Source of the DNA: an uncultured Clostridia bacterium
GTDB lineage: Bacteria > Bacillota > Clostridia > TANB77 > CAG-465
Assembly: GCA_947632635.1 (NCBI GenBank)
Contig: CANRQA010000002.1
Coordinates: forward strand, 5-64,004
DNA length: 64,000 bases
Reading direction: 5' to 3'
Under the pieces are notes generated by a model. The model was not told the origin of the DNA, searched no databases, and was given only the letters and a program-made list of their open reading frames with translations. Below are positions 6,688 through 49,094 of the stretch, one piece after another (position 1 is the stretch's first letter; the number at the start of each line of letters is the position of its first letter). The position numbers and the translations under genes were made by a program.

Positions 6688-6690
6688 TGG

Positions 6691-6721
6691 AAAATGGAGA
6701 GTAAATTACTCTCCATTTTTT
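6691..6721 (+). terminator. Rho-independent terminator
   Basis: AAAATGGAGAGTAAATTACTCTCCATTTTTT hairpin plus T-run. Confidence 0.8.
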
Positions 6722-6867
6722 GCGCTCAAATTAATATATTTTTTCTAAAAATAAAATTAAAAATTTTTCATTATGTTTTTTTTACAAATATTTTAGTTAA
6801 TATGTCATATAAATAAAATGTTAAATTCTTAATTTTAGGTTATATTTGTAAATTTATCATAAAAGTA

Positions 6868-6896
6868 TTGTAATAAACGAAGTTATATGCTACAAT
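6868..6896 (+). promoter_or_regulatory. sigma-A promoter for the ATPase gene
   Basis: TTGTAA-17-TACAAT. Confidence 0.5.
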
Positions 6897-6956
6897 ATAA
6901 GTATGAAAAATGCAATTGAAATTGCAAAAATCATATTTGTTAAAAAAGGAGATATT

Positions 6957-8273: not shown

Positions 8274-8311
8274 TTTAAAGTGCTAAATTGAAATAGTTTA
8301 ACTTTAAAGTC

Positions 8312-8340
8312 TTGACATAACATCAAGGCTGATGTATAAT
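8312..8340 (+). promoter_or_regulatory. sigma-A promoter
   Basis: TTGACA-17-TATAAT, perfect consensus. Confidence 0.65.
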
Positions 8341-8384
8341 GTAACTAACTTAATTAAATAATTTCTAATAATTAATATGAAAGG

Positions 8385-8918
8385 ATGAAAAAAAGCATGG
8401 TATCTAATGAAACTACAAAAAGAGGTAATACCAAAAAAGAAAAGCGGTTTAGAAATTATATAAAAGTCTACTGGGACGTTATAGGTAATGTTATAGTTGC
8501 AATTTTCACTATTGCTAGTTTTATATTACTTCTAAATCTCATGCTAAATTCGGTATTCAAAGGCACACAAGAGAAACAGTATAAACAAATGGAAAATGCA
8601 ATTTCATATGTATATGATGAATTAAATGAAAAGGATGTTATTTCAGATGTTTTAGCTAATAATCAAACAGAAGTAACAAGACAAGTAGGAAATGTAACAG
8701 TTACTTTAAATAATACTGAAATAACTGCTAGAATAAACGGATATGATTTTGGATATGTAAGAGCACCTTTCAATTTTAAAGGTGAGCTTCAATATGAAAG
8801 AATAAATGATAATGGATTTCGTATCTTTGTATCTATAGTTTTATCTTTAATTGCTTTAGGCATTGTATTTTCTGTTTTACTTTTAATTAAAGAATTGTTT
8901 AAAGAATTTTTTTGGTAA
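8385..8918 (+). CDS. Small membrane protein, paralog C (start may be ATG 8397)
   Basis: Close paralog of 6145..6687. By analogy with paralog B, the ATG 12 nt after GAAAGGA (8397) is the likelier start. Confidence 0.65.
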   Translation: MKKSMVSNETTKRGNTKKEKRFRNYIKVYWDVIGNVIVAIFTIASFILLLNLMLNSVFKGTQEKQYKQMENAISYVYDELNEKDVISDVLANNQTEVTRQVGNVTVTLNNTEITARINGYDFGYVRAPFNFKGELQYERINDNGFRIFVSIVLSLIALGIVFSVLLLIKELFKEFFW

Positions 8919-8925
8919 CTTAATA

Positions 8926-8957
8926 AAAAATGGAGAGTAATTTACTCTCCATTTTTT
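8926..8957 (+). terminator. Rho-independent terminator (duplicate of 6691-6721)
   Basis: AAAAATGGAGAGTAATTTACTCTCCATTTTTT. Confidence 0.8.
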
Positions 8958-9059
8958 GCGATTAAATCTATATATTTTTTCTAAAAATAAAATTAAAAAT
9001 TTTTCATTATGATTTTTTTCTACAAATATTTTAGTTAATATGTAATATAAATAAAGTGG

Positions 9060-33472: not shown

Positions 33473-33502
33473 GGGGTGTGATTTATTTTTAAATTACACC
33501 CC
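33473..33502. terminator. Hairpin between convergent smpB and fic
   Basis: GGGGTGTGATTT-N6-AAATTACACCCC; poor T-run on either strand. Confidence 0.4.
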
Positions 33503-33520
33503 AACAAATATTATATAGTC

Positions 33521-34175
33521 TTAAAAACTAATTCCGTCGATACAATTATCATAAATAAATTGTTTAATCTTACTCATATTATTTGTATTATAATAATCAG
33601 TTAAAAGTAAATTAAATTCTTCTAAATGTTTATCTGACACTTTTATAATACCACATCCATTTTCTATCATTATTTTATTTGCACAAATTGTACTAGTTCT
33701 TTTATTACCATCCCAAAAAAGTTGACTTCTCATACCGTATAGCATATATTCAATAGCTTTTTCAGTTACATTTGATATACTTAATATGTTTTCTATTTCA
33801 GCTTCAACTTGTTCCTTTTGCTTTATTGGTGGAATATAATCTGTGCCAGTGATTTCAACTTTACCGTGTCCTTAAAGTACCCCACTTTATACTTTCATTA
33901 TGACTTACAAATGAATTTACTTTGCATACAAAATCAAGGTTAAAAGGCACTGATATGTTATCAATAACGTATTTCCAAGCATCTCTTAAATTTAAGATAC
34001 ATACAATCTCATCTAATTTTAAATTTGGAACATTAATACCCTCTAAAATTTTCTTAATTTGCTCAAAAGTAGCATTAATACCTTCCATTTTAGCATTAGC
34101 ATATATATTATCTATTAGATTTTTTCTTGCAAGAAATATATTTTGTTCCAAAGTCATATTATATTTATTTTCCAT
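33521..34175 (-). pseudogene. Fic/DOC-family gene with degenerate active-site motif and a +1 frameshift (plus-strand nt 33866)
   Basis: The upstream ORF ends ..KWGTLRTR*. Removing one C on the coding strand gives ..GTLRTGKVEITGTDYIPPIKQ.. and joins ORF 33521-33745. The Fic motif reads QLFWDGNKRTST instead of HPFxDGNGRxxR. Confidence 0.7.
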
Positions 34176-34257
34176 ATTAATTCCTCATTTCTATAGTAAT
34201 TATATAATATATAGTTAAAAAAATCAATAAAAACAAAAATAGTTCTTGCAATCTTAT

Positions 34258-34545
34258 TTAATAGCTATTTGTTGCTATATTTGAGTTTGTATTTTGATTT
34301 ATACTTGAATTGTTGGTATTTTGAGTACCAACATTAGAATTATTATTTTCATTATTGCAACAAATTGCCTCACAATCACTTGCTACCCCTGACATAGAAA
34401 GTAAATTTTGAGCAATAACTTGAAGTAAATTGCCCAGTATATCTTGTTCTGTAAGTGTTAAGTCTTTAGCTAATGTTATTGCAACTAAAGCACCAAAAAG
34501 TACGACATTGTTTCCTACATTTTCACATATATTACATTTATTCAT
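34258..34545 (-). CDS. Small cysteine-containing protein with Asn/Gln/Thr-rich tail (third gene of a Cys-rich trio)
   Basis: 95 aa. CNIC near the N-terminus, DCEAICC, hydrophobic helical core. Starts 9 nt after the previous stop. Confidence 0.5.
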   Translation of the reverse strand: MNKCNICENVGNNVVLFGALVAITLAKDLTLTEQDILGNLLQVIAQNLLSMSGVASDCEAICCNNENNNSNVGTQNTNNSSINQNTNSNIATNSY

Positions 34546-34554
34546 ATGCTACTC

Positions 34555-34851
34555 CTATGTATTACTTGTAACACTACCGCTTATTGTAAGTAAATGATGT
34601 TTACATCTATTTGGTAAGCAAATTTGAGTTTCAAATGTAGTAAATATTTGCCTTATAATAGTTTCCGTTCCATTTTGTATTAAAACTGTAAAATATCTGC
34701 TATTTGCTTGTATAATATTTACAACATAACCACACTGTAATTCTATAGTTTGGTTTGTATTTGTTATAGTAAGCATTTTTTGTCTGCAACAACTCGAACA
34801 ATTATCTCTAACGCAGTCTTCAATAGTTATATTAACTATGAAACCATCCAT
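34555..34851 (-). CDS. Small cysteine-rich beta-type protein (possible spore-surface/Ena-DUF3992-like subunit)
   Basis: 98 aa. N-terminal CxxxxCxxCC, C-terminal CLPNRC. SD AGGAGGAG upstream. Confidence 0.5.
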   Translation of the reverse strand: MDGFIVNITIEDCVRDNCSSCCRQKMLTITNTNQTIELQCGYVVNIIQANSRYFTVLIQNGTETIIRQIFTTFETQICLPNRCKHHLLTISGSVTSNT

Positions 34852-34870
34852 AAAAATCTCCTCCTAAAAA

Positions 34871-35197
34871 TTAGTTTGAACAACAAACAACTGTTGTACC
34901 ACAATCAATTGCAGTTACTCCAACAAAAACTCTTAAATTTCCACCAGTTGTTGGTAAATCGAATATTTTGTATCCACCGCTTGAAATTGTAAAAATTAAA
35001 TTTGGTATTTGGTCCTCATTTGTGATTTGAATTGTAGCATTGTTTCTATTTCCACCTAAAAATTTTATAGAATATCCTAAAGAAAGAGGGATAATGCTAT
35101 TTGTCGCAACATTAGTATAAACATTATCTATTACTTGTGGTATACCATTTAAACATCTTCTTTGTCTAATTGTTAAAGTAAAACAAAAATTGCACAT
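34871..35197 (-). CDS. Small cysteine-rich beta-type protein (possible spore-surface/Ena-DUF3992-like subunit)
   Basis: 108 aa. N-terminal MCNFC..C, C-terminal DCGTTVVCCSN. SD GAGGTG upstream. Confidence 0.5.
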   Translation of the reverse strand: MCNFCFTLTIRQRRCLNGIPQVIDNVYTNVATNSIIPLSLGYSIKFLGGNRNNATIQITNEDQIPNLIFTISSGGYKIFDLPTTGGNLRVFVGVTAIDCGTTVVCCSN

Positions 35198-35220
35198 TTT
35201 GTATCACCTCATTTTATTTA

Positions 35221-35247
35221 AGTATATGAATAAAATATTTGAAATGT
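35221..35247 (-). promoter_or_regulatory. Candidate sigma-K-type promoter for the Cys-rich trio
   Basis: Minus strand reads AC-17 nt-CATATACTTA, compared with the B. subtilis sigma-K consensus AC-N16/17-CATAnnnTA. The motif is short and degenerate. Confidence 0.3.
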
Positions 35248-35267
35248 TACTTTTAAAATATATAAAA

Positions 35268-35299
35268 AAGGATAATAAGCGGTTAAACTTATTATCCTT
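35268..35299 (-). terminator. WG-array cassette terminator T0
   Basis: AAGGATAATAAG-CGGTTAAA-CTTATTATCCTT with an A-run on the plus side (T-run on the minus strand). Confidence 0.8.
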
Positions 35300-35330
35300 T
35301 TACAATATTACAATATTAAAATATTCCTAA

Positions 35331-35513
35331 TTATAGCAAGTCTATTTTAAAATTATAGGCAAAATGATATTTTATTTCAGTAATATCGTTTCTATCAATA
35401 TCAAAAAAAGCAAATGCATTATTAAATTTGACTATAGCAAAATTACGTACAAATTTACCAATATGCTTACCCCTTTCTTCTGCAAATTCATTTACAAAGC
35501 CACTTTTAGTCAT
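35331..35513 (-). CDS. Truncated WG-repeat family member (N-terminal module only, 60 aa)
   Basis: MTKSGFVNEFAEE.. matches the conserved family N-terminus. SD AAAGGAGG. Less than one WG unit. The ORF-track start 35582 is unlikely. Confidence 0.5.
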   Translation of the reverse strand: MTKSGFVNEFAEERGKHIGKFVRNFAIVKFNNAFAFFDIDRNDITEIKYHFAYNFKIDLL

Positions 35514-35570
35514 GTCTTTTAAAGCCTCCTTTAAAATTATTTGAATGATAAAATTATAACCTATAATAAA

Positions 35571-35599
35571 ATTATACCGCAAAAGTCTAATTATGTCAA
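35571..35599 (-). promoter_or_regulatory. sigma-A promoter for the truncated WG gene
   Basis: Minus strand TTGACA-17-TATAAT. Confidence 0.55.
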
Positions 35600-35877
35600 G
35601 TAAATCAGCTTTTATAGTAAAACTTTATATGATTAATTTATAAAGCCTAAAATAAAAACTTTTTAAAATGTCCCAAAAAGGAAATAATAAGTCATAGATG
35701 TGACTTAAATGAGAAAGGTAAATTTAAGAATGAATTGGAAAAGTACAATGTTATTAAAGAATTAGTAGATTATATTGGGAACAAAACAGAGAAAAAGAAT
35801 TAAATATCTCATTTAGTATAGATTTTTTTACCAAAATGGTTTATAATACTCTAAAATAGATAGGAGTGTGAAAAAAT

Positions 35878-36153
35878 ATGACCTATGAATTTGCTAAATA
35901 TCCCGACGGTATATTAGGAGTATTTTCTAGTATTGGAAAAAAGGAAAATGATGAGGAATATATTCGTGTAACTTTTGAAAGACCAACAAAAAATGGGTTT
36001 GATACTTATGTTATTGAACTACCAAGTTATGAAGTTATTTTAGAAGATGGAAATTATTCCAAAAAAGAAAAGGAGAATTTTATGAAAATTGTAAAAAATG
36101 GGTCATCTTTTTTCTTTAAATATGCACGAATAGGGGGATTACAAATTACTTAA
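35878..36153 (+). CDS. Hypothetical protein
   Basis: SD TAGGAGTG; 91 aa; no motif recognised. Confidence 0.45.
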   Translation: MTYEFAKYPDGILGVFSSIGKKENDEEYIRVTFERPTKNGFDTYVIELPSYEVILEDGNYSKKEKENFMKIVKNGSSFFFKYARIGGLQIT

Positions 36154-36417
36154 TATTTAAAAAGCGGATACAAAATATATTTTTGGACTAACGAAAATGA
36201 TGAGCCTATTCATGTTCACATATCGAAAGGAAGTCCGTCACAAAATGCAACTAAAGTTTGGATAACTCAAGTGGGTGGTTGTATTGTTTGTCATAATAAA
36301 AGTAAAATACTTGAAAGAGAGTTAAACATTATTTGTGAGGATATTTCATTACACTATTTTCAAATAGTTGAAATGTGGAAAAATATTCATTCAGGTAATG
36401 TAAAATTTTATTGCTGA
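36154..36417 (+). pseudogene. DUF4160-like ORF without a start codon, in frame with the upstream ORF across a single TAA
   Basis: YLKSGYKIYFWTNENDEPIHVHISKG.. resembles the DUF4160 N-terminus (..Y..D...PPHfH.). There is no ATG/GTG/TTG between the TAA at 36151-36153 and this motif. Confidence 0.35.
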
Positions 36418-36763
36418 TGATTTTTTGAAAAATAAGTGAGGGAGTAGAAATCTTTCACTTATTTTTGTGATTATTTAATTAAATTTTAATACATTTATGT
36501 TGAATAATATAATTAAGGGGAGAGTATGAAGAAAAAGACAAAGTATTGTATATTTAATTATATGAAAGGAAACAAAGATGAAAAAATTCGAAAATATAAT
36601 TAAAGAAAAAGCATAAGAAATTTTAACAGTTTTAAAGTGGTAAATTCAGGTTTACATCATCGTATTAGTCATAGTGCAAGGTTTATAGCATTTTTTAAAA
36701 TAAATATATGTGCTTTTTGCAATTTTTTAGAATTAAATAACCTTGAGTATTAAAATATATAAA

Positions 36764-36795
36764 AAGGATAATAAGCGGTTAAACTTATTATCCTT
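36764..36795 (-). terminator. WG cassette terminator T1
   Basis: Same hairpin AAGGATAATAAG-CGGTTAAA-CTTATTATCCTT. Confidence 0.8.
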
Positions 36796-36824
36796 TTACA
36801 ATATAAAAAATAAATCTAATTATT

Positions 36825-37610
36825 TTATTTTAAATTTATCTGATTAAATGGCTTAAAATTACCTAATGTGTCAATTCTACCTTTTACTGTTATTTTTATT
36901 TCCACTTCTGCGTAATTACCTTTAAAATCGTTAGCTTCTACATATATGAAGTCAGTTATTTCTTTGCCGCTTTTATCAATAAAGCCCCATTTGTTGTGAA
37001 GCTTTACTTTAGCAAACCCATTTACGAAATCTGAAGCGTCATCATATTTAATAGCAGTAATTTCTCTACCATTAGTATCCAAAAAGCCCCATTTTTTGTT
37101 AAGTTTTACTTTAGCAAATCCATTTACAAAATTTGAAACATCATCATATTTAATAGGGATAACTTCTTTACCATTAGTATCTATAATCCCAAATTTATCT
37201 TTAATATTTACTATAGCAAATCCATTTTCAAAATCATAAACATAATCATATGTAATAGGAGAGATTTCCTTTCCTTTGGTATTTATAAAACCAAATTTTC
37301 TATCAAGCATTACTATAGCAAAACCATTTTTAAAGTTATAAGCAAAATTATATTTAATAGGGGTAATTTCTTTGCAATTAGAATTTATAAAACCATATTT
37401 ATTGTTAATCTCCACTACAGCGAACCCGTTTTCAAAAAAACAAATTTCATCATATTTAATAGGAGTTACTTCTTCGACCATAGTATTAATAAAGCCGTAT
37501 TTCCCTTTTTTCCGTACTATAGCCAAATTCTCATTAACAAACCAAATAAGAGTATATCCTTTTTTACACATTTTTTCTACATTTTCATTTACAAAGCCAC
37601 TTTTAGTCAT
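36825..37610 (-). CDS. WG-repeat (PF14903/KWG-type) protein, 6 repeats
   Basis: 261 aa. Six units of ..NGFA.V..N.K(W/Y)GFI(D/N).(T/S)GKEI(T/S)PIKYD... Conserved N-terminus MTKSGFVNENVEKMCKKGY. No signal peptide. Confidence 0.85.
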   Translation of the reverse strand: MTKSGFVNENVEKMCKKGYTLIWFVNENLAIVRKKGKYGFINTMVEEVTPIKYDEICFFENGFAVVEINNKYGFINSNCKEITPIKYNFAYNFKNGFAIVMLDRKFGFINTKGKEISPITYDYVYDFENGFAIVNIKDKFGIIDTNGKEVIPIKYDDVSNFVNGFAKVKLNKKWGFLDTNGREITAIKYDDASDFVNGFAKVKLHNKWGFIDKSGKEITDFIYVEANDFKGNYAEVEIKITVKGRIDTLGNFKPFNQINLK

Positions 37611-37665
37611 GTCTTTTAGTTCCTCCTTTAAAATTATTTAAATGAATAATTTATTAATTTACTAG

Positions 37666-37694
37666 ATTATATCATCGTATTAGCCATAATGCAA
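37666..37694 (-). promoter_or_regulatory. WG cassette promoter
   Basis: Minus strand TTGCAT-17-TGaTATAAT. Confidence 0.6.
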
Positions 37695-37780
37695 GGTTTG
37701 TAAAACTTTTTTAAAATAAATATATGAGCTTTTTACAATTTTTTAGAATTAAATAACCTTGAGTATTAAAATATATAAAA

Positions 37781-37812
37781 AAGGATAATAAGCGGTTAAA
37801 CTTATTATCCTT
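37781..37812 (-). terminator. WG cassette terminator T2
   Basis: Identical hairpin. Confidence 0.8.
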
Positions 37813-37837
37813 TAAAAAAGAAAAATATTTTGTTATT

Positions 37838-38704
37838 TTAATTTAGTGGAGTAAAATTACCTAATTTGTCAATTTTACCTGTAACACTTATTTTAACTTT
37901 TGCATATTCATTTTCAAAATCGTTAGCTTCTATATATGTGAAATCAGTTATCTCATTACCACTTTCATCAATGAAGCCCCAGCAACCATTAAGTTTTGCT
38001 TTTGCAAACCCATTTATAAAATCACCAATATAATCATATTTTATAGGAGTAATTTTTTTCTCAGTAGTATCAATAACGCCCCATTTCCCATTAAGCTTTA
38101 CTTTAGCAAGCCCATTTATGAAACTTGAAACATCATCATATATAATGGAAGTAATTTCTTTGCTAGTAGTGTCAATAAAACCCCATTTGTCGTTAATGCA
38201 TACCGTAGCAAAACCGTCTTTAAAATCACAAACAAAATCATACTTTATTTCAGTAATTTCTTTGCCAGTAGTGTCAATAAAGCCCCATTTACTGTTGAGG
38301 TCAACTCTAGCAAATCCATTTTTAAAATTCCAAACTAAATCATATTTTATTTCAGTAATTTCTTTACCAGTAGTATCAATAAAACCCCATTTCTTGTTAA
38401 TGCATACTATGGCGAATCCGTTTTCAAAAGACCAAAAAACATCATATTTTATTTTTGTAATTTCTTTACCAGTAGTGTCAATAAGGCCGTATTTATTTTT
38501 AATTTTTACTATAGAAAAACCATTTTCAAAATCTGAAACACTATCATATTTAATAGGAGTTACTTCTTCGACCATAGTATTAATAAAGCCGTATTTCCCT
38601 TTTTTCCGTACTATAGCCAAATCTTCATTAGCAAACCCAATAAGAGCATATCCTTTTTTACACATCTTTTCTGCATTTTCATTTACAAAGTCATTTCTAG
38701 TCAT
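37838..38704 (-). CDS. WG-repeat protein, 7 repeats
   Basis: 288 aa. N-terminus MTRNDFVNENAEKMCKKGY; C-terminus GKIDKLGNFTPLN. Confidence 0.85.
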   Translation of the reverse strand: MTRNDFVNENAEKMCKKGYALIGFANEDLAIVRKKGKYGFINTMVEEVTPIKYDSVSDFENGFSIVKIKNKYGLIDTTGKEITKIKYDVFWSFENGFAIVCINKKWGFIDTTGKEITEIKYDLVWNFKNGFARVDLNSKWGFIDTTGKEITEIKYDFVCDFKDGFATVCINDKWGFIDTTSKEITSIIYDDVSSFINGLAKVKLNGKWGVIDTTEKKITPIKYDYIGDFINGFAKAKLNGCWGFIDESGNEITDFTYIEANDFENEYAKVKISVTGKIDKLGNFTPLN

Positions 38705-38759
38705 GTTTTTAAATCCTCCTTTAAAATTATTTAAATGAATAATTTATTTAATTTACCAG

Positions 38760-38788
38760 ATTATATCATACGAGTTTTTACAAGTCAA
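38760..38788 (-). promoter_or_regulatory. WG cassette promoter (variant -35)
   Basis: Minus strand TTGACT-17-TATAAT. Confidence 0.55.
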
Positions 38789-38837
38789 TATTATTACAAG
38801 AATTAGTGTTTACTTTATAAGTACTTTGCGTATAAAA

Positions 38838-38869
38838 AAGGATAATAGGTAAGTACACCTACTATCCTT
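38838..38869 (-). terminator. WG cassette terminator T3 (variant stem)
   Basis: AAGGATAATAGG-N8-CCTACTATCCTT plus T-run on the minus strand. Confidence 0.7.
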
Positions 38870-38903
38870 TTTGTGTAAAAGCTAATTTTTTTGTTTTAAC
38901 TAA

Positions 38904-40313
38904 CTACATTATAAAAATAGGCAAGAACCTCCCATTAGCATCAATAATGCCGGGAAATGTTACTTTAGCAAAGCCATTTACAAAATTTTCTATACTACCT
39001 AATATTGTTGGAATAATTTCTTTACCACTTTCATTAATAAAGCCATATTTATTGTTAAGCATGACTTTAGCAAAGCCATTTACAAAATCAAAAATCCTAT
39101 CATATTTTATTTCGGTAATTTCCTTACCGTCAGTATTAATAAGGCCTAATTTCCCATCAATATTAACTCTAGCAAATCCATCTTTAAAATAATAAACATG
39201 ATCATATTTAAATTTAGTTATTTCTTTACCAGTTTCATCAATAAATCCCCACTTGTTGTTAAACTTTACCCCTGCAAAGCCATTTTCAAAATTGTTAACA
39301 TCATCATATATAATAGGAGTAATTTCGTTACCACTTTCATCAATAAAACCCCATTTATTATCAATACATACCCTTGCAAATCCATTTAAAAAAATATAAA
39401 CACCATCATACTTAATTTTAGTAATTTGCTTTCCTGTCGTATCAATAAAGCTAAATTTGTTATTAGCGCGTACTATAGCAAAACCATTTACAAAATCAAA
39501 AATCCTATCATATTTAATTTCAGTAATTTCTTTGCCTGAAGTATCAATAAGGCCCCATTTGTTATTAAGGCTTCCTTCAGCAAACCCATTTTTAAAATAA
39601 GTAACCTTATCATATTTAATAGGAGTAATTTCGTTACCATTAATATCAATAAGGCCCCATTTGTTGTTAATGCATACTTGTTGAGAGAATCCATTTCTAA
39701 AATACCACCAAAAATCATCATAATCATATTTAAATTCAGTTATTTTTTTACCGGTAGTATCAATAAAGCCCCATTTGCCATTAAGCCTAACTTTAATAAC
39801 CCCATATTTAAAAGTTATTCCAGCAATATCTTCGTATATAATTTTAGTTATTTCTTCACCTTTAGTATTAATAAAACCATATTTTTCATTAAGCATTACC
39901 CATGCAATCTCACATTCAAAATTGCCAACGCACTCATATATAATAGGAGTAATTTCCTTGCCACTTTCATCAATAAAGCCCCATTTATCATCAATACATA
40001 CCCTTGCAAATCCATTTTCGAAATCGTAAACATCATCATACTTTATTTCAGTAATCTCGTTGCCATTAGTATCAATAAAACCGTATTTGACATCGCCGTT
40101 ATTGTTATAAATATTTACTCTAGCAAAACCGTTTTCAAAATTCCAAGTATCATTATACTTTATTTCAGTAATCTCGTTACCATTAGTATCAATAAAGCCG
40201 TATTTACCATTAATTTTTACTATAGCAAATCCATTTACAAAGTTACCAATAAAATGATATTTTTGTTTACAAACCTTTTCTACATTTTCGCTTACAAAGC
40301 CATTTCTAGTCAT
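38904..40313 (-). CDS. WG-repeat protein, 12 repeats
   Basis: 469 aa; the C-terminus differs from the family consensus (..GIIDANGRFLPIFIM). Confidence 0.85.
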   Translation of the reverse strand: MTRNGFVSENVEKVCKQKYHFIGNFVNGFAIVKINGKYGFIDTNGNEITEIKYNDTWNFENGFARVNIYNNNGDVKYGFIDTNGNEITEIKYDDVYDFENGFARVCIDDKWGFIDESGKEITPIIYECVGNFECEIAWVMLNEKYGFINTKGEEITKIIYEDIAGITFKYGVIKVRLNGKWGFIDTTGKKITEFKYDYDDFWWYFRNGFSQQVCINNKWGLIDINGNEITPIKYDKVTYFKNGFAEGSLNNKWGLIDTSGKEITEIKYDRIFDFVNGFAIVRANNKFSFIDTTGKQITKIKYDGVYIFLNGFARVCIDNKWGFIDESGNEITPIIYDDVNNFENGFAGVKFNNKWGFIDETGKEITKFKYDHVYYFKDGFARVNIDGKLGLINTDGKEITEIKYDRIFDFVNGFAKVMLNNKYGFINESGKEIIPTILGSIENFVNGFAKVTFPGIIDANGRFLPIFIM

Positions 40314-40369
40314 GTTTTTAAATCCTCCTTTAAAATTATTTAAATGAATAATTTATTTAAATTTACTAG

Positions 40370-40398
40370 ATTATATCATCGTATTAGTTATAATGCAA
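40370..40398 (-). promoter_or_regulatory. WG cassette promoter
   Basis: TTGCAT-17-TGaTATAAT on the minus strand. Confidence 0.6.
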
Positions 40399-40484
40399 GC
40401 TTTATAGCAGTTTTTTAATAAATATATATGAGCTTTTTGCAATTTTTTATAATTAAATAACCTTAAGTATTAAAATATATAAAA

Positions 40485-40516
40485 AAGGATAATAAGTGGT
40501 TAAACTTATTATCCTT
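40485..40516 (-). terminator. WG cassette terminator T4
   Basis: AAGGATAATAAG-TGGTTAAA-CTTATTATCCTT. Confidence 0.8.
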
Positions 40517-40538
40517 TAAAGAAAATTATTTTTTTATT

Positions 40539-41759
40539 TTAATTTAGTGGCGTAAAATTGCCTAATTTGTCAATTCTACCTTTAATACTTATTTCCACTT
40601 CTGCATATTCATTTTCAAAATCGTTAGCTTCTATATATGTGAAATCAGTTATCTCTTTACCATTAGTATCAATAAAGCCCCATCTGCCATTAAGTTTTGC
40701 TTTAGCAAAACCATTTTCGAAATTTGAGACCTCATCATATTTAATTTCAGTTATTTCCTTACCACTTTTATCAATAAAGCACCATCTGCCATTAAGTTTT
40801 GCTTTAGCAAAACCATTTACGAAATTTGAAAGCTCATCATATTTAATTTCAGTTATCTCATTACCACTAGCATTAATAAATCCACATTTATTTTTAAGTT
40901 TTACTATAGCAAATCCATTTTTAAAATCCCAAACCAAATTATATTTAATTTCAGTTATCTCGTTGCCATTGCTATCAATGAAGCCACATTTATTATCAAT
41001 ACATACCCTTGCAAATCCATTTTCAAAGTCCCAAATATAACCATATTTAATAGGAGTAATGTTATTATCGTAAATATCAATAAGGCCCCATTTGTTCTTA
41101 AGACATATTCTAGCAATTCCGTCTTGAAAATTAGAAACCTCATCATATTTAAATTTAATTATATTGTTGCCATTAGTGTCGATAAATCCCCATTTATGAT
41201 TATGATTAGCACATACCATAGCAAATCCGTTTTCAAAATCATGAGCATTAATATATTCAATTTTAGTAATCTTTTTACCAGTAGTATCAATAAAACCATA
41301 TTTGGTATCAACGCCGCCGTATTTGCCATTAATTGCTACTATAGCAAAACCGTTTTTAAAATCCCAAGCACCAGTATACTTTATTTCAGTAATCTCTTTA
41401 CCAGTAGTATCAATAAAACCATGTTTGGCATCAATGCCTCCGTATTTGCCATTAATTTCTACTCTAGCAAATCCATTTTTAAACTCATGAACATAATCAT
41501 ATTTGATTTCAGTTATCTCGTTGCCATTAGTATCAATAAAGCCACATTTGCCATTAAGTTTGACTATAGCAAAGCCATTTACAAAATCACAAACGTAATC
41601 ATATTTAATATCTGTTATTTCCTTACCACTTTCGTCAATAAAGCCCCATTTACCATTAAGTTTGACTCGAGCAAATCCATTTACAAAGTTACCAATATAA
41701 AAATATTTCCTTTCACACAATCTTTCTACATTTTCGTTTACAAAGCCACTTTCAGTCAT
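40539..41759 (-). CDS. WG-repeat protein, 10 repeats
   Basis: 406 aa. N-terminus MTESGFVNENVERLCERKY; C-terminus GRIDKLGNFTPLN. Confidence 0.85.
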   Translation of the reverse strand: MTESGFVNENVERLCERKYFYIGNFVNGFARVKLNGKWGFIDESGKEITDIKYDYVCDFVNGFAIVKLNGKCGFIDTNGNEITEIKYDYVHEFKNGFARVEINGKYGGIDAKHGFIDTTGKEITEIKYTGAWDFKNGFAIVAINGKYGGVDTKYGFIDTTGKKITKIEYINAHDFENGFAMVCANHNHKWGFIDTNGNNIIKFKYDEVSNFQDGIARICLKNKWGLIDIYDNNITPIKYGYIWDFENGFARVCIDNKCGFIDSNGNEITEIKYNLVWDFKNGFAIVKLKNKCGFINASGNEITEIKYDELSNFVNGFAKAKLNGRWCFIDKSGKEITEIKYDEVSNFENGFAKAKLNGRWGFIDTNGKEITDFTYIEANDFENEYAEVEISIKGRIDKLGNFTPLN

Positions 41760-41814
41760 GTTTTAAATCCTCCTTTAAAATTATTTATTAGATTTAAGTA
41801 AATTAATTTACTAG

Positions 41815-41843
41815 ATTATATCATTGTATTAGCCAAAATGCAA
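41815..41843 (-). promoter_or_regulatory. WG cassette promoter
   Basis: TTGCAT-17-TGaTATAAT on the minus strand. Confidence 0.6.
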
Positions 41844-41928
41844 GGCTTGTAGAGTTTTTTTATAAATATATATGTGCTTTTTGCAATTTCTTAAAATTAA
41901 ATAACCTTGAGTATTAAAATATATAAAA

Positions 41929-41960
41929 AAGGATAATAAGCGGTTAAACTTATTATCCTT
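41929..41960 (-). terminator. WG cassette terminator T5
   Basis: Identical hairpin. Confidence 0.8.
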
Positions 41961-41983
41961 TAAAGAAAATTATTTTTGTTATT

Positions 41984-42850
41984 TTAATTTAGTGGTGTAA
42001 AGTTACCTAATGTATCAATTTTACCTTTAACTTCTATTGTTACTTCAGCATATCCATTTGCAAAATTATAAGCTCTATCATATTTAGGTGGAACAATTTC
42101 CTTACCACTTTCATCAATAAAGCCGTAGTTACCATTAGTTTTTACCTTAGCAAAACCATTTACAAAGTCAAAAACCTTATCATAAATAATAGGAGTAATT
42201 TCCTTACCACTTTTATCAATAAAGCTCCATTTGTTATTAAGGCATACCATAGCAAACCCGTCAGCAAAATTACAAACCTCATCATACTTTATTTCAGTAA
42301 TTTCTTTGCCAGTAGTATCAATAAAACCGAATTTGCTGTTAATGTATACTCTAGCAAATCCATTTTTAAAATTCCAAGCATCATCATATTTTATTTCAGT
42401 AATTTCTTTGCTAGTAGTGTCAATAAAGCCGTATTTGCCGTTAATGTATACTCTAGCAAAACCGTTTTTAAAATCCCAAACATTATCATATTTTATTTCA
42501 GTAATCTCTTTGCCAGTAGTGTCAATAAAGCCGTATTTGCCATTAATTTTTACTCTAGCAAAACCATTTATAAAATCCCAAACATTATCATATTTTATTT
42601 CAGTTATCTCTTTTCCGGTAATATCGATAAAGCCCCACTTGTCATTAATGCATACCCCGGCAAAACCTTTTTTAAAATTATAAGCAAAATTATATTTAAT
42701 ATTTGATATTTCCTTACCATTTTTATCAATGAAACCCCATTTTCCATAAACAAATACTCTAGCAAATCCATCGTAAAAAATATCAATATACTTATAATTA
42801 TCTTTACACATTCTTTCTACATTTTCGTTTACAAATCCACTTTCAGTCAT
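41984..42850 (-). CDS. WG-repeat protein, 7 repeats
   Basis: 288 aa. N-terminus MTESGFVNENVERMCKDNY; C-terminus GKIDTLGNFTPLN. Confidence 0.85.
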   Translation of the reverse strand: MTESGFVNENVERMCKDNYKYIDIFYDGFARVFVYGKWGFIDKNGKEISNIKYNFAYNFKKGFAGVCINDKWGFIDITGKEITEIKYDNVWDFINGFARVKINGKYGFIDTTGKEITEIKYDNVWDFKNGFARVYINGKYGFIDTTSKEITEIKYDDAWNFKNGFARVYINSKFGFIDTTGKEITEIKYDEVCNFADGFAMVCLNNKWSFIDKSGKEITPIIYDKVFDFVNGFAKVKTNGNYGFIDESGKEIVPPKYDRAYNFANGYAEVTIEVKGKIDTLGNFTPLN

Positions 42851-42906
42851 GTTTTTAAATCCTCCTTTAAAATTATTTATTAGATTTAAGTAATTTAATT
42901 TACTAG

Positions 42907-42935
42907 ATTATATCATTGTATTAGCCAAAATGCAA
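42907..42935 (-). promoter_or_regulatory. WG cassette promoter
   Basis: TTGCAT-17-TGaTATAAT on the minus strand. Confidence 0.6.
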
Positions 42936-43022
42936 GGATTGTAGCGCTTTTTTATAAATATATATGTGCTTTTTGCAATTTTTTTAAAATTAAATAACCT
43001 TTAGTATTAAAATATATAAAAA

Positions 43023-43054
43023 AAGGATAATAAGCGGTTAAACTTATTATCCTT
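43023..43054 (-). terminator. WG cassette terminator T6
   Basis: Identical hairpin. Confidence 0.8.
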
Positions 43055-43102
43055 AAAAAAAGAGAATTATTTTTACATTTTAATTTAGTGGTGTAAAATT
43101 AT

Positions 43103-43726
43103 CTAATTTGTCAATTCTACGGAAGTGGATAATGGAAGGAACATGGAAGGCGTAAAGTTGCCTAATGTATCAATTCTACCTTTAACTTTTACTATTACTT
43201 CAGCATATCCATTTGAAAAATTATCGGCACTATAATATTTAGGTGGAATAATTTCCTTACCACTTTCATCAATAAAGCCGTATTTACCATTATTTTTTAC
43301 TATAGCAAAACCATTTGCAAAGTCAAAAACCGTATCATAAATAATAGGAGTAATTTCCTTACCACTTTCATTAATGAACCCCCATTTGCCATTAAGCATG
43401 ACTTTAGCAAAACGGTTTTTAAAGTTACAAACAGAATCATACTTTATTTCAGTTATCTCTTTTCCGGTAGTATCAATAAAACCGTAATTTTCGTTAATTT
43501 TTACTATAGCAAAATTATTTTCAAAATTCCAAGCATAATCATACTTTATTTCAGTTATCTCGTTGCCATTAGTATCAATAAACCCCCATTTTCCAACAAA
43601 GCTAGATCTGCCGCATTTGTCACATATTTTTACCGTAGAAAAACCATTTTCAAAACCGCAAATAAAATCATATTTTTTGTTACACCTTTTTTCTACAATT
43701 TCGTTTACAAAGCCATTTCTAGTCAT
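43103..43726 (-). CDS. WG-repeat protein, 4 repeats, with rearranged 3' end
   Basis: 207 aa. After GRIDTLGNFTP the ORF runs into a 30-bp insert (SMFLPLSTS) and an out-of-frame second copy of the family 3' end. Confidence 0.8.
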   Translation of the reverse strand: MTRNGFVNEIVEKRCNKKYDFICGFENGFSTVKICDKCGRSSFVGKWGFIDTNGNEITEIKYDYAWNFENNFAIVKINENYGFIDTTGKEITEIKYDSVCNFKNRFAKVMLNGKWGFINESGKEITPIIYDTVFDFANGFAIVKNNGKYGFIDESGKEIIPPKYYSADNFSNGYAEVIVKVKGRIDTLGNFTPSMFLPLSTSVELTN

Positions 43727-43782
43727 TTTTTTAAATCCTCCTTTAAAATTATTTATTAGATTTTAGTAATTTAATTTACTAG

Positions 43783-43811
43783 ATTATATCATCGTATTAG
43801 TCAAGATGCAA
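43783..43811 (-). promoter_or_regulatory. WG cassette promoter
   Basis: TTGCAT-17-TGaTATAAT on the minus strand. Confidence 0.6.
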
Positions 43812-46739: not shown

Positions 46740-49094
46740 ATGTTAAAACTAAACAATATATGTAAAAGTTTTAAAACAGCAGATTTTGTACAAAAAGCAC
46801 TAGATGATGTAAGCATTGAATTTAGGAAAAATGAATTTGTAGCAATACTTGGCCCAAGTGGTAGTGGTAAAACAACACTACTTAATATTATAGGTGGTCT
46901 TGACCATTATGACAGTGGTGATTTAGTTATAAACTCAAAATCAACTAAAGATTTTAAAGATAGAGATTGGGATGCATATAGAAACAACTGTATAGGCTTT
47001 GTATTTCAAAATTATAACCTAATATCTCATATTAGTATATTATCTAATGTAGAAATGTCTATGACTTTAAGTGGAGTAGGTGCTAAAGAAAGAAAAAAAC
47101 GTGCAATGGAGGCTTTAGAAAAAGTTGGACTTAAAGAACATATGAATAAAAAGCCAAATCAGCTATCAGGTGGGCAAATGCAAAGAGTTGCAATTGCAAG
47201 AGCACTTGTAAATAACCCTGATATAATAATGGCAGATGAACCAACCGGAGCACTTGATAGCAAAACTAGCGTACAAATAATGGAATTAATAAAAGAAATT
47301 GCAAAAGATAAATTAGTTATAATGGTAACACATAACCCTGAACTTGCAAAAGATTATGCTACAAGAATTGTAGAACTAAAAGATGGACACATAATTAGCG
47401 ATTCAAATCCAGTAAATGAAAAAGAAAGGGAAGAAAAGGAATATACTATTGGTAAAACTGCAATGAGCTTTTTCTCTGCTTTAAATCTATCTTTTAATAA
47501 TATAAAAACTAAAAAGGGAAGAACTTTTTTAACAGCCTTTGCATCAAGCATTGGTATTATTGGTATAGCAATAATATTAAGCCTTTCAAATGGCTTTCAG
47601 TTAAAAATTGATGAATATATAAAAGACACAATGGATCAATTTCCAATAATTATAACTGAATCAACAATGGAAGTTGACTCTGAAATGTTAGAAGAACAAC
47701 ATCAGGAGTTAACTGATATTATGCTTGGAAATGTTGAATATCCTGATACTCAAGAAGTGGCTTTGTATGATTCAAGTCTTGATACTATAACTCATACAAA
47801 TGTAATGTCTGATGAATACATTTCATATTTAGAGGCAGTTGATAAGGATGTATGTAGTAGTATTGGATATATAAATATAATATCTATGAATGCGATAAGA
47901 AAAACAGATGACAAAGTAGTACCTGTATCATTTGCAACAGGTGTAAACAATACAGTAAGTTATAGTACTAGTGGTATGACAAATATGTCTGTTACAACAT
48001 ATCCTAAAATGCTCGATGAAAATACAACATATTTAGAAGAATATTATGATATTTTATCAGGAGCATATCCTAAGTTACCAACAGAAGTAGTATTAGTTGT
48101 TGATAATAAAAATAGAATAGATGAAAAAGTTATGAAAGGTCTTGGCTTTGAAACAGAGGATATAGAAAGCATAAAATTTGAAGATATCATAGGAACAGAA
48201 ATGCAAATTGTATCAAACAATGATTTTTATGAAAAAGGCACATTTGGTAACTTTGTACCTAAAACAAACTATGACAGTTTATATGATTTAGAGAATAATA
48301 TAACAATAAAAATAGTTGGAATTGTACGTTCTAAAAAAGACGTAAAAATATCTTTACTTGCAGGTGGTATAGCATATAGTAATGAATTATCAAATATAGT
48401 TTATGAAAAAGCTAAAGATTCAGATATAGTAAAAGACCAAATGGACTCAAATCTTAATTTATTAACTATGCAGGAATTTAAAACAGATAAAGAAAAAGAC
48501 CAAATGATAGCTTATCTTGGTGGAAGTAAAGTACCAGTATCAGCTATAATTTATCCTACAACTTTTGAAAATAAAGAAAAACTTATAGAATATTTAGATG
48601 AATATAACGACGGAAAAGAAAAAGATGACAAAGTTGTTTATACTGATTTGTCTGAAACTATAACTACTATGACATCTGGTATTATGGACGCAATAACAAT
48701 TGTACTTATTGCATTTTCTGCAATTTCACTTGTAGTATCAACAATTATGATAGCAATTATTACTTATATTTCTGTACTTGAAAGAACAAAGGAAATAGGA
48801 ATATTAAGAGCACTAGGTGCAAGAAATAAAGATATTACTCGTGTATTTAATGCTGAAACATTTATAATAGGGTTATTTTCAGGCTTGATTGGTATTGTAG
48901 TAGCAGGTCTACTTACTATTCCTGCAAATAGTATACTACTAAAACTTACTGAACTTGAAAATGTTGCACAACTTAAAATTGAACATGCATTATTGCTTGT
49001 TACTATAAGTGTAATATTAACTTTAATTGGTGGCTTTATACCAGCAAAAATTGCTGCTAAAAAAGACCCTGTTGAAGCACTTAGAACAGAATAA
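46740..49094 (+). CDS. ABC transporter, fused ATP-binding and FtsX/MacB-type permease
   Basis: Walker A GPSGSGKTT, signature LSGGQMQR, Walker B IIMADEPT. Large extracytoplasmic domain and C-terminal FtsX-like TMs. Confidence 0.9.
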   Translation: MLKLNNICKSFKTADFVQKALDDVSIEFRKNEFVAILGPSGSGKTTLLNIIGGLDHYDSGDLVINSKSTKDFKDRDWDAYRNNCIGFVFQNYNLISHISILSNVEMSMTLSGVGAKERKKRAMEALEKVGLKEHMNKKPNQLSGGQMQRVAIARALVNNPDIIMADEPTGALDSKTSVQIMELIKEIAKDKLVIMVTHNPELAKDYATRIVELKDGHIISDSNPVNEKEREEKEYTIGKTAMSFFSALNLSFNNIKTKKGRTFLTAFASSIGIIGIAIILSLSNGFQLKIDEYIKDTMDQFPIIITESTMEVDSEMLEEQHQELTDIMLGNVEYPDTQEVALYDSSLDTITHTNVMSDEYISYLEAVDKDVCSSIGYINIISMNAIRKTDDKVVPVSFATGVNNTVSYSTSGMTNMSVTTYPKMLDENTTYLEEYYDILSGAYPKLPTEVVLVVDNKNRIDEKVMKGLGFETEDIESIKFEDIIGTEMQIVSNNDFYEKGTFGNFVPKTNYDSLYDLENNITIKIVGIVRSKKDVKISLLAGGIAYSNELSNIVYEKAKDSDIVKDQMDSNLNLLTMQEFKTDKEKDQMIAYLGGSKVPVSAIIYPTTFENKEKLIEYLDEYNDGKEKDDKVVYTDLSETITTMTSGIMDAITIVLIAFSAISLVVSTIMIAIITYISVLERTKEIGILRALGARNKDITRVFNAETFIIGLFSGLIGIVVAGLLTIPANSILLKLTELENVAQLKIEHALLLVTISVILTLIGGFIPAKIAAKKDPVEALRTE

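What the first reader, a model, noticed from the sequence alone, without database searches (positions are those of the whole stretch)
35268..43811. ~8.5 kb tandem array of seven self-contained WG-repeat gene cassettes with variable repeat number
Seven minus-strand paralogues carry 4, 7, 10, 12, 7, 6 and <1 WG units, read from right to left. All share the N-terminal module MT(K/R/E)(S/N)(G/D)FVNENVE(K/R).C. Most share the C-terminal module G(K/R)ID(K/T)LGNFTPLN. Each gene has its own SD (AAAGGAGGA), its own promoter (TTGCAT-17-TGaTATAAT, highly conserved) and an identical terminator hairpin AAGGATAATAAG-CGGTTAAA-CTTATTATCCTT. The ~225-bp inter-gene module is much more conserved than the genes. 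None has a signal peptide or TM, although WG/KWG repeat proteins are generally assumed to be surface or binding proteins. Identical flanks combined with internal ~115-bp periodic repeats make an ideal substrate for unequal recombination. This may therefore be an expanding and contracting repertoire of binding proteins. The function of the array is unknown.
Basis: partly seen in the sequence, partly recalled or inferred. Interest (0 to 1): 0.65.

Follow-up and report, generated by a model that had tools for sequence, protein, structure and literature searches.

The report
Tandem leaderless WG-repeat gene cassettes
An uncultured spore-forming gut bacterium carries six intact copies and one decayed copy of a gene for an all-beta "WG repeat" protein with no export signal; each copy has its own promoter and terminator, and the family has been reshuffled by recombination, but what the proteins do is untested.

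Summary
Window 35268-43811 holds seven minus-strand cassettes with 4, 7, 10, 12, 7, 6 and <1 WG units, all strong PF14903 matches. Each has a sigma-70-type promoter, a Shine-Dalgarno site (SD) and an intrinsic terminator. One detail is wrong: the unit period is 102 bp (34 aa), not ~115 bp.

New findings:
- **End modules.** The conserved N- and C-terminal modules are degenerate WG units in register. They look like caps, the N-terminal one with a helix, and not export signals.
- **Structure.** AlphaFold2 gives a confident all-beta model (pLDDT 96). Its units resemble propeller blades, but no solved fold matches globally.
- **Inter-gene modules.** They are 88-94% identical, against 65% for mean unit identity. 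They are also better conserved than coding DNA in a second species that has the same kind of array.
- **Mosaicism.** The 5' and 3' ends of the cassettes have discordant nearest relatives.
- **Variation.** One low-coverage metagenome contig lacks exactly one 102-bp unit. Other same-species contigs are invariant.

Most WG proteins elsewhere carry signal peptides or lipoboxes, so this leaderless capped subfamily is unusual.

Best reading: a birth-and-death family of cytoplasmic modular binding scaffolds, diversified by unequal recombination. The ligand and role are unknown. I rate it a new variant of a known kind, of moderate interest.

The parts
43773..43811 (-). Promoter of cassette A (TTGCAT-17-TATAAT with a TGn extended -10), divergent from era
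43103..43726 (-). Gene A, 207 aa: N-cap unit (with a 9-aa insertion), 4 WG units and a frameshifted tail
43059..43179 (-). 59-nt tandem duplication of the 3' coding end of A. The second copy still encodes RIDKLDNFTPLN*, but out of frame
   Evidence: (family D17)
43023..43054 (-). Terminator hairpin after A (type I)
42897..42935 (-). Promoter of cassette B
41984..42850 (-). Gene B, 288 aa, 7 units. AF2 model pLDDT 96.2. Window 42404-42505 (one unit, at the B3/B4 junction) is missing in metagenome contig L002
41929..41960 (-). Terminator hairpin after B (type I)
41805..41843 (-). Promoter of cassette C
40539..41759 (-). Gene C, 406 aa, 10 units (two enlarged units of 41-43 aa)
40485..40516 (-). 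Terminator hairpin after C (type I, 1 mismatch in the loop)
40360..40398 (-). Promoter of cassette D
38904..40313 (-). Gene D, 469 aa, 12 units. It has degenerate middle units, a second internal helix and a divergent tail resembling the L005 tails
38835..38872 (-). Terminator hairpin after D (type II: GGATAGTAGGT...ACCTATTATCC, with compensatory stem changes). It is the same type as in the related species L005
38750..38788 (-). Promoter of cassette E (type II, TTGACT-17-TATAAT)
37838..38704 (-). Gene E, 288 aa, 7 units
37781..37812 (-). Terminator hairpin after E (type I)
37656..37694 (-). Promoter of cassette F
36825..37610 (-). Gene F, 261 aa, 6 units
36764..36795 (-). Terminator hairpin after F (type I)
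36650..36679 (-). Orphan promoter remnant (TTGCAC ... GATGTAAAC). The conserved inter-gene module breaks off here
35600..36649 (+). Non-WG spacer. It holds a 91-aa ORF (35878-36153), a DUF4160 reading frame without a start codon (about 36154-36414) and its own terminator (36428-36466). The end next to G is conserved upstream of the first cassette in L005
35571..35599 (-). Promoter of cassette G (TTGACA-17-TATAAT, 12 of 12 matches)
35331..35513 (-). Cassette G, a decayed remnant of 60 aa: a shortened cap unit plus a partial unit
35268..35299 (-). Terminator hairpin after G (type I)

Best explanation
**What the locus is.** It is a birth-and-death multigene family of leaderless WG (PF14903) beta-repeat proteins. 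Each gene sits in its own stand-alone expression cassette. A cassette consists of an intrinsic terminator, a sigma-70-type promoter with an extended -10, a 5'UTR of about 55 nt, a strong SD and the ORF.

**What the proteins look like.**
- Shown: each protein is nothing but WG units. It has a 3-residue leader, a degenerate first unit whose first half is predicted to be a helix, n canonical 34-residue units, and a truncated last unit.
- Inferred: the first and last units act as an N-cap and a C-cap. The proteins stay in the cytoplasm as capped stacks of blade-like units that can vary in number.
- Inferred: the invariant residues (I4, Y16, F22, A27, and the W/Y-G motif) form the core. The hypervariable positions (18, 20, 23, 28, 30, 33) lie on exposed faces. 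The six paralogues would then form a panel of binding scaffolds that differ in length and surface.

**How diversity arises (partly shown).** Homologous, unequal recombination between 102-bp units would change unit number in frame. Recombination between conserved cassette ends and inter-gene modules would duplicate, delete and re-assort cassettes.

**What remains unknown.** The ligand and the physiological role have not been tested.
For: - **Family membership.** PF14903 scores are 162-397 bits against a cutoff of 25.6.
- **Units in register.** Units are 34 aa and in register. An HMM built from the 34-aa WG units of the six genes aligns end to end to the N-terminal modules (C0 4e-15, D0 3e-14, A0 1e-9, B0 6e-8, F0 9e-5). 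It aligns in register, but weakly, to the C-terminal tails. In a 1.8-billion-protein scan, the N-module profile matches internal units of thousands of WG proteins.
- **Structure.** AF2 gives pLDDT 96.2 and pTM 0.84 for B, with helix 9-18 and then regular hairpins. D gives pLDDT 82. Foldseek hits are only to propellers, with probability 1 but TM 0.2-0.39.
- **Scaffold pattern.** Conserved and variable positions alternate within the unit.
- **No export signals**, whereas most homologues elsewhere have a signal peptide or lipobox.
- **Selection.** ORFs of 207-469 aa are intact in a 26% GC genome, and dN/dS is 0.15-0.75. This indicates the genes are under selection.
- **Regulatory elements.** Promoters and terminators are far above chance.
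- **Recombination.** Similarities are mosaic and neighbouring units are near-identical. There is a 59-nt tail duplication and a 102-nt in-frame unit loss in L002.
- **Second species.** A related species has an array of the same kind with 120, 250, 454 and >=148 aa genes. Its inter-gene module is 81-85% identical to the window's D-E module, while coding ends are typically about 70% (range 64-82%) identical.
Against: - There is no experimental or literature evidence on what any PF14903 protein binds or does.
- I could not inspect the AF2 coordinates, so 'open, capped stack' is inferred. It rests on the variable unit numbers and the low TM-scores to closed propellers.
- dN/dS is below 1 in every comparison, so there is no signal of diversifying selection at gene-segment level.
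- Eleven same-species contigs show no structural variation. The single unit loss lies in a 4x contig and could be an assembly artefact.
- Cytoplasmic location is inferred only from the absence of known signals.
Confidence: 0.55

Rival explanations
1. Immunity- or defence-type array. The paralogues would be intracellular neutralising or sensing proteins directed against incoming toxins or phage proteins. This would resemble the poly-immunity loci of polymorphic toxin systems, or the repeat sensor domains of TIR effectors. This is a specific version of the binding-panel idea.
For: - The genes are leaderless and form a tandem paralogous array, each independently expressed.
- WG repeats are fused to TIR domains (PF13676/PF01582) in other proteins (L033 and L072).
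- The array lies in a reverse-oriented block that also holds a degraded Fic/Doc-like toxin gene and a DUF4160 remnant.
Against: - No toxin, LXG/Rhs or secretion gene is adjacent.
- No PADLOC model matches the WG proteins.
- dN/dS is below 1.
- The base composition matches the host genome.
- The proteins (207-469 aa) are larger than typical immunity proteins.
Confidence: 0.15
2. Exported or surface-exposed variable proteins. They would be released by a non-classical route and serve as adhesins or antigens, as is assumed for WG/KWG proteins in general.
For: Most WG-repeat proteins in other phyla, and on clostridial plasmids and phages, have signal peptides or lipoboxes. The fold therefore functions outside the cell in those cases.
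Against: - None of the seven has a signal peptide, lipobox, TM segment or LPxTG.
- The conserved N-terminus is acidic, is predicted to be helical, and aligns as a repeat unit.
- No wall-binding domain is detected.
- No dedicated secretion genes lie next to the array.
Confidence: 0.1
3. Spore-associated structural proteins. They would be made without a leader in the mother cell and deposited on the spore (coat or exosporium). Unit number would set the length of a structural element.
For: - The organism has sporulation genes (a spoIIIAE match).
- Coat proteins have no leader.
- Three small Cys-rich ORFs of unknown function lie directly downstream on the same strand.
Against: - The promoters match the housekeeping sigma-70 consensus with an extended -10, not sigma-E or sigma-K types (promoter type is my reading of the sequence).
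- There is no similarity to known coat families.
Confidence: 0.07
4. A decaying or neutral repeat array with no current function, kept only because duplication is recent.
For: - One cassette (G) is clearly degraded.
- Gene A has a frameshifted tail.
- D contains degenerate units that AF2 models with low confidence.
Against: - Six long intact ORFs persist in a 26% GC genome.
- dN/dS is 0.15-0.75 with dS 0.16-0.68.
- Regulatory modules are conserved across species, and the same architecture is kept in a second species.
Confidence: 0.05

Closest known systems
Pfam PF14903 WG_beta_rep ('WG repeat-containing protein' in NCBI annotation; related to the KWG Leptospira repeat)
   Same: - Repeat unit of about 34-35 residues with the W/Y-G-F-I-D ... 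Y-D ... F-x-N-G-F-A motif.
- All-beta prediction.
- Very strong HMM matches.
- A huge and widespread family: more than 18,000 clusters at 50% identity.
   Different: - Most members that I inspected carry a signal peptide, lipobox, kinase or TIR domain. These proteins are leaderless and consist of repeats only, with a conserved helix-bearing N-terminal unit that looks like a cap.
- They form a tandem array of monocistronic cassettes with a conserved regulatory module.
- No member of the family has a characterised function.
Beta-propeller repeat proteins (BamB, WD40/eIF2A, IFT-A tandem propellers)
   Same: Foldseek finds blade-like local similarity with probability 1.0 and E down to 1e-10.
   Different: - TM-scores are only 0.2-0.39 and rmsd is 12-20 A.
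- There is no sequence similarity to any PDB chain.
- Unit numbers of 5 to 13 (counting the cap unit), together with conserved end caps, argue against a closed ring of fixed blade number.
Tandem paralogue arrays of exported WG proteins (for example Spirochaetota MAG loci L024 and L027, Moraxella L023)
   Same: Several same-strand WG-repeat genes lie in a row with differing unit numbers.
   Different: Those proteins all have hydrophobic signal sequences. I did not see a conserved terminator-promoter module in them, but I did not examine this in detail.
Poly-immunity loci of polymorphic toxin systems, and variable surface-protein loci such as Mycoplasma vsp/vlp (comparison from general knowledge)
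   Same: Tandem paralogues with conserved flanks and variable repeat content, evolving by recombination.
   Different: - No adjacent toxin.
- No lipoprotein leader.
- No site-specific recombinase, invertible promoter or simple-sequence tract.

Membership tests
PF14903 WG_beta_rep | Pfam HMM match above the gathering threshold (25.6 bits) | tested here: met
   A-F score 161.7-397.4 bits with 4-13 stretches each. G gives no hit.
PF14903 WG_beta_rep | Tandem units of about 35 residues with a conserved aromatic-Gly motif, predicted to be beta-rich | tested here: met
   34-aa / 102-bp period. AF2 gives an all-beta model at pLDDT 96.
Closed beta-propeller (WD40, PQQ, BamB-like) | Global superposition on a closed toroid of fixed blade number | tested here: inconclusive
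   Best TM-scores are 0.39 for B and 0.28 for D, despite significant local 3Di matches. I could not inspect the coordinates.
Secreted or lipoprotein WG proteins | N-terminal signal peptide or lipobox | tested here: not met
   The maximum 12-residue hydropathy over the N-terminal 40 residues is 0.7-1.65, against more than 2 in exported homologues. There is no lipobox, LPxTG or TM segment.
Phase-variable surface-antigen loci (inverton or SSR controlled) | Inverted repeats flanking the promoter with a nearby invertase, or simple-sequence tracts in the promoter or 5' coding region | tested here: not met
   Only terminator hairpins and weak AT-rich pairs were found. No recombinase gene lies in the block.
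Poly-immunity locus of a polymorphic toxin system | Linkage to a toxin gene (LXG, Rhs, CdiA and similar) with its secretion system | tested here: not met
   The neighbours are era, recO, smpB, small unknown ORFs and a degraded Fic/Doc-like gene.
Known anti-phage defence systems (PADLOC-DB) | Match to a defence-system protein model | tested here: not met
   No meaningful hit for the WG proteins: B and F gave none, and D only a negligible Cas11a match (E 0.007, no stretch).
Integron-like gene cassettes | Integrase gene plus attC sites, with promoterless cassettes | tested here: not met
   Each cassette has its own promoter. No integrase lies in the block. The hairpin is followed by a T-run, as in an intrinsic terminator.

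The most novel reading that the evidence does not exclude
The array could be a recombination-driven intracellular recognition repertoire. Leaderless WG scaffolds of different length and surface would be constantly expressed from a conserved plug-in cassette (terminator, promoter, UTR). They would sense or neutralise foreign proteins such as phage products or toxins, and would be re-assorted at the conserved cassette boundaries. This would be a bacterial counterpart of repeat-based variable receptors.
Probability: 0.08. Interest if true: 0.8.

Novelty: new variant of a known kind. Interest (0 to 1): 0.4.

Why it matters
PF14903 is one of the large, widespread bacterial repeat families with no known function and no solved structure. 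This locus offers a clean natural series: the same caps and the same expression signals, with 4 to 12 units. That makes it useful for asking how unit number and surface residues relate to function.

The locus also shows that a lineage of Bacillota makes these proteins without any export signal, which contradicts the default assumption that they are surface proteins.

The regulatory module is better conserved than the coding sequence, both within the array and between species. That is an unusual and testable feature.

Tried and rejected
- **PDB by sequence:** no hit.
- **Rfam on the whole window:** no hit at all, so there is no riboswitch or leader in the conserved 5'UTR.
- **PADLOC:** nothing for the WG proteins.
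- **JGI metagenome scan with the N-cap signature:** a single spurious hit, antisense to rpoB.
- **Protein searches:**
  - The exact cluster look-up found none of the proteins.
  - The first homologue search and the 1.8-billion-protein profile search were both swamped by long generic WG proteins. The size of the leaderless capped subfamily therefore remains unknown.
- **GTDB genome scan:** only one close relative, L005. The window's own species is not in that collection.
- **Inverton idea:** rejected. Weak 15-20-nt inverted pairs link the codons for 'KKGY' to the upstream terminator T-tract in E and F. I judged them chance matches in AT-rich DNA, and no invertase is present.
- **Recent foreign insertion between F and G:** weakened, because the end next to G is conserved in L005.
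- **Sigma-E or sigma-K promoter reading:** considered and rejected because the spacing does not fit (my reading).
- **Context of the single-copy leaderless WG gene in Peptostreptococcaceae:** TPR, LrgAB and MORN neighbours gave no functional lead.
- **Literature:** no functional study of the family.


Full report

Yes. Between 35268 and 43811 there are seven same-strand (minus) ORFs:

| Gene | Coordinates | Length |
|---|---|---|
| A | 43103-43726 | 207 aa |
| B | 41984-42850 | 288 aa |
| C | 40539-41759 | 406 aa |
| D | 38904-40313 | 469 aa |
| E | 37838-38704 | 288 aa |
| F | 36825-37610 | 261 aa |
| G (remnant) | 35331-35513 | 60 aa |

- A-F match Pfam PF14903 (WG_beta_rep) at E 3.5e-48 to 7e-122; G gives no hit.
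- The period is 102 bp / 34 aa, not about 115 bp. Only two units in C are enlarged, to 41-43 aa.
- A scan of all window ORFs with an HMM of the unit finds WG repeats nowhere else in the 64 kb.

**2. The cassette boundaries**

An alignment of the inter-gene regions shows a module of about 200-250 bp. It consists of the stop codon, an intrinsic terminator, an A/T-rich stretch, the promoter TTGCAT-17-TATAAT preceded by TG (extended -10), a leader of about 55 nt, AAAGGAGGA, and the ATG.

- **Promoter.** The promoter-plus-leader pattern occurs six times, only in front of A-F, with 0 expected by chance.
- **Terminator.** The 32-nt hairpin occurs five times exactly and once with one loop mismatch, with 0 expected. 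It folds at -15.5 kcal/mol, z = -6.4, and is followed by a T-run.
- **A second module type.** The module between D and E is 'type II'. Its hairpin is GGATAGTAGGT...ACCTATTATCC, which keeps the stem through compensatory changes. Its -35 reads TTGACT.
- **After F.** The module is present up to a mutated -10 (GATGTAAAC, 36650-36679) and then breaks off.
- **Spacer.** About 1 kb follows (35600-36649). It holds a plus-strand 91-aa ORF, a DUF4160 reading frame (E 2.7e-13) without a start codon, and its own terminator.
- **Cassette G.** It has a different, perfect consensus promoter (TTGACA-17-TATAAT), the usual SD and the usual terminator.

**3. Conservation pattern**

- Type I modules are 88-94% identical to one another.
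- Canonical units average 65% DNA identity, and the best matches are 75-92%.
- Even the closest coding segments have dS 0.16-0.25. This exceeds the 6-12% divergence of the modules.
- The claim 'flanks more conserved than genes' therefore holds, even against synonymous sites.
- dN/dS is 0.15-0.75. That indicates purifying to relaxed selection, with no gene-segment-level sign of positive selection.

**4. Evidence for recombination**

Similarities are mosaic.

- **5' ends.** E0/F0 are 91% identical, E1/F1 83%, and C0/D0 83%.
- **3' ends.** A3-A4 pair with B6-B7 at about 90%, and C10 with E7 at 89%. By contrast, A0/B0 are only 63% and C0/E0 60%.
- **5'UTR variants.** They group {A,B,C} against {D,E,F}, which cuts across both of the groupings above.
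- **Neighbouring units.** Some are near-identical: B3/B4 92%, B2/B3 87%, C8/C9 88%.
- **Gene A.** It carries a 59-nt tandem duplication of its 3' end (43059-43179, family D17). The duplication shifts the frame, replaces the usual tail, and leaves a second out-of-frame copy that still encodes RIDKLDNFTPLN*.
- **Gene D.** Its tail and the module after it are of the type found in the other species.

**5. Variation between genomes**

The exact era, smpB, B, D, E and F proteins occur only in ENA metagenome contigs from one study. These contigs have about 3-5x coverage and all break inside the array. Gene C was not on record.

- Eleven of these contigs are 99.93-100% identical to the window, with no indels.
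- One contig, L002 from sample ERZ27249059, is otherwise almost identical up to its divergent right end (see section 10). It lacks exactly 102 nt (window 42404-42505). This fuses units B3 and B4 in frame at a 21-nt stretch of identity.
- That is the event predicted by unequal recombination. However, at 4x coverage, with a junction identity equal to a common assembler k-mer, an artefact cannot be excluded.
- Another sample carries the 7-unit B.

The GTDB scan found one close relative, an uncultured 'Bacilli' MAG from rabbit (L005).

- Its 3.7-kb contig is entirely an array of the same kind: 120, 250, 454 and >=148 aa genes.
- These genes have the same N-terminus (MTEKGFVNEDVQRMCEKKYD) and a related tail.
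- Its inter-gene modules are type II and 81-85% identical to the window's D-E module. The coding ends are typically about 70% identical between the species, with a range of 64-82%.
- Gene conversion cannot act between species. The regulatory module is therefore either under direct constraint or has been exchanged.
- The first 186 nt of L005 are 79% identical to the region just upstream of G. The F-G spacer is therefore not simply a recent insertion unique to this genome.

**6. The proteins**

- **N-terminal module.** It is 3 residues plus exactly one 34-residue unit in register. An HMM built from the canonical 34-aa units aligns to it end to end (C0 4e-15, D0 3e-14, A0 1e-9, B0 6e-8, F0 9e-5). 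A profile of the module matches internal units of thousands of WG proteins.
- **C-terminal module.** G(K/R)IDxLGNFTPLN aligns in register to WGFIDxxGKEITxI, but the statistics are weak.
- **AF2 model of B.** The model is confident (pLDDT 96.2, pTM 0.84). Residues 9-18 form a helix. Each unit then forms a 6+6 hairpin plus short strands, and the tail adds the final strands. I read the two end modules as caps.
- **AF2 model of D.** The model is less confident (pLDDT 82). Degenerate units at 135-164 are poorly modelled, and a second helix lies at 198-206. This suggests two sub-domains.
- **Fold comparison.** Foldseek finds only beta-propellers (BamB, eIF2A, IFT-A, WD40). Probability is 1 but TM is 0.2-0.39, and no PDB sequence matches. 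The units are blade-like, but the global fold has no solved counterpart. Unit numbers of 5-13 (counting the cap unit), together with conserved caps, argue for an open stack. I could not inspect the coordinates.
- **Variability within the unit.** I4, Y16, F22 and A27 are essentially invariant. Positions 18, 20, 30, 33, 28 and 23 are hypervariable and alternate with conserved residues in the hairpin. This is the pattern of a scaffold with variable exposed faces.
- **Export signals.** No paralogue has a hydrophobic N-terminus, TM segment, lipobox or LPxTG.

**7. Comparison with the family at large**

- PF14903 is enormous: more than 5,000 hits and more than 18,000 clusters at 50% identity.
- In the 80 loci fetched from GTDB, most WG proteins start with a signal peptide or lipobox. 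Others carry an N-terminal Ser/Thr kinase or a TIR domain. Exported versions also occur in tandem, for example in Spirochaetota loci L024 and L027 and Moraxella locus L023.
- WG proteins on Clostridium botulinum plasmids and in Clostridioides phages are lipoproteins.
- Leaderless repeat-only forms exist as single genes in Peptostreptococcaceae, in an uninformative context.
- No paper in the searchable library reports a function for the family.

**8. Genomic setting**

- The organism is an uncultured Bacillota with 26% GC. It has sporulation and type IV pilus genes.
- The block 33.5-43.8 kb is the only minus-strand stretch in the window. Its GC skew is inverted but its GC content is the same as the flanks. 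There is thus no compositional sign of recent foreign origin.
- The block lies between smpB and era. Besides the array, it contains a split Fic/Doc-like pseudogene and three small Cys-rich ORFs.

**9. Interpretation**

*Shown:*
- The array has six intact cassettes and one decayed cassette, each with its own expression signals.
- The proteins consist of WG units throughout, and the conserved end modules are degenerate units in register.
- No export signals are present.
- The cassettes are mosaic.
- The regulatory module is conserved within the array and between species.

*Inferred:*
- The end units act as structural caps.
- The proteins are cytoplasmic.
- They form an open-ended stack.
- They bind ligands through the variable faces.
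- Unequal recombination is the ongoing generator of unit and cassette variation.

My best explanation is a birth-and-death family of cytoplasmic modular binding scaffolds (confidence about 0.55). The rivals are a defence or immunity panel (0.15), non-classically exported surface proteins (0.10), spore structural proteins (0.07) and functionless decay (0.05).

**10. Verdict**

This is a new variant of a known kind: a leaderless, capped PF14903 subfamily organised as monocistronic cassettes with a conserved regulatory module. It is of moderate interest. It is useful as a natural length series for a large family of unknown function, but it is not a new kind of system.

One loose end: the right end of L002 diverges from the window after about 46924. 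I did not follow this up.

Noticed in passing
window 33521-34175 (-): Two adjacent short ORFs (74 and 104 aa) look like the two halves of a disrupted Fic/Doc-type gene. The matches are weak: TIGR01550 DOC_P1 at E 6e-4 and PADLOC candidate PDC-S04 at E 3e-4.
   Followed up: partly
window 34258-35197 (-): Three consecutive small Cys-rich ORFs (95, 98 and 108 aa) lie directly downstream of the array on the same strand. They have no family assignment apart from a sub-threshold DUF5901 hit.
   Followed up: partly
window 35600-36649 (+): The spacer between cassettes F and G holds a 91-aa ORF of unknown family. It is followed by a DUF4160 reading frame (E 2.7e-13) that lacks any ATG/GTG/TTG start, and by its own terminator (36428-36466). 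The end next to G is 79% identical to the start of contig L005 from another species.
   Followed up: partly
window 33500-43811: This is the only minus-strand gene block in the 64-kb window. GC skew flips sign here while GC content stays at 25-28%. These strongly promoted, repeat-rich genes therefore run opposite to all their neighbours, possibly head-on to replication.
   Followed up: no
window 38118-38738, 39678-40343, 41124-41801, 42231-42683 (+): Long antisense ORFs (150-225 aa) run opposite the WG genes. They are periodic mirror images of the repeats and are most likely not genes.
   Followed up: no
window 37555-37574 / 37768-37787 and 38649-38663 / 38830-38844: Inverted pairs of 15-20 nt (90-93% complementary) bracket the promoters of F and E. 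One arm lies in the codons for 'KKGY' and the other in the upstream terminator. I judged them chance matches in AT-rich DNA, and no invertase is nearby.
   Followed up: partly
L002 4720-4839 (window about 46924-47044): The right end of this metagenome contig diverges completely from the window, inside the ABC-transporter gene 46740-49094. It is either a strain difference or a chimeric contig end.
   Followed up: no
window 69-1898 (+): A 609-aa PARCEL-repeat surface protein (TIGR02167, 498 bits) is a second, unrelated repeat-protein gene in the window.
   Followed up: no
window 1-64000: Rfam at gathering thresholds finds no RNA family in the whole 64 kb. There is no tRNA, and no tmRNA gene next to smpB.
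   Followed up: no
window 38904-40313 (gene D), residues 135-164 and 198-206: AF2 gives very low confidence for the degenerate units D3-D4 and predicts a second helix in the enlarged unit D5 (DYDDFWWYF). The 12-unit protein may consist of two capped sub-arrays.
   Followed up: partly
L042 / L036 (Paraclostridium, Romboutsia) 6500-13900: A conserved single-copy leaderless WG gene (about 322 aa) sits after two TPR-protein genes and before lrgAB, with a MORN-repeat gene nearby. This forms a cluster of different repeat-protein genes.
   Followed up: partly
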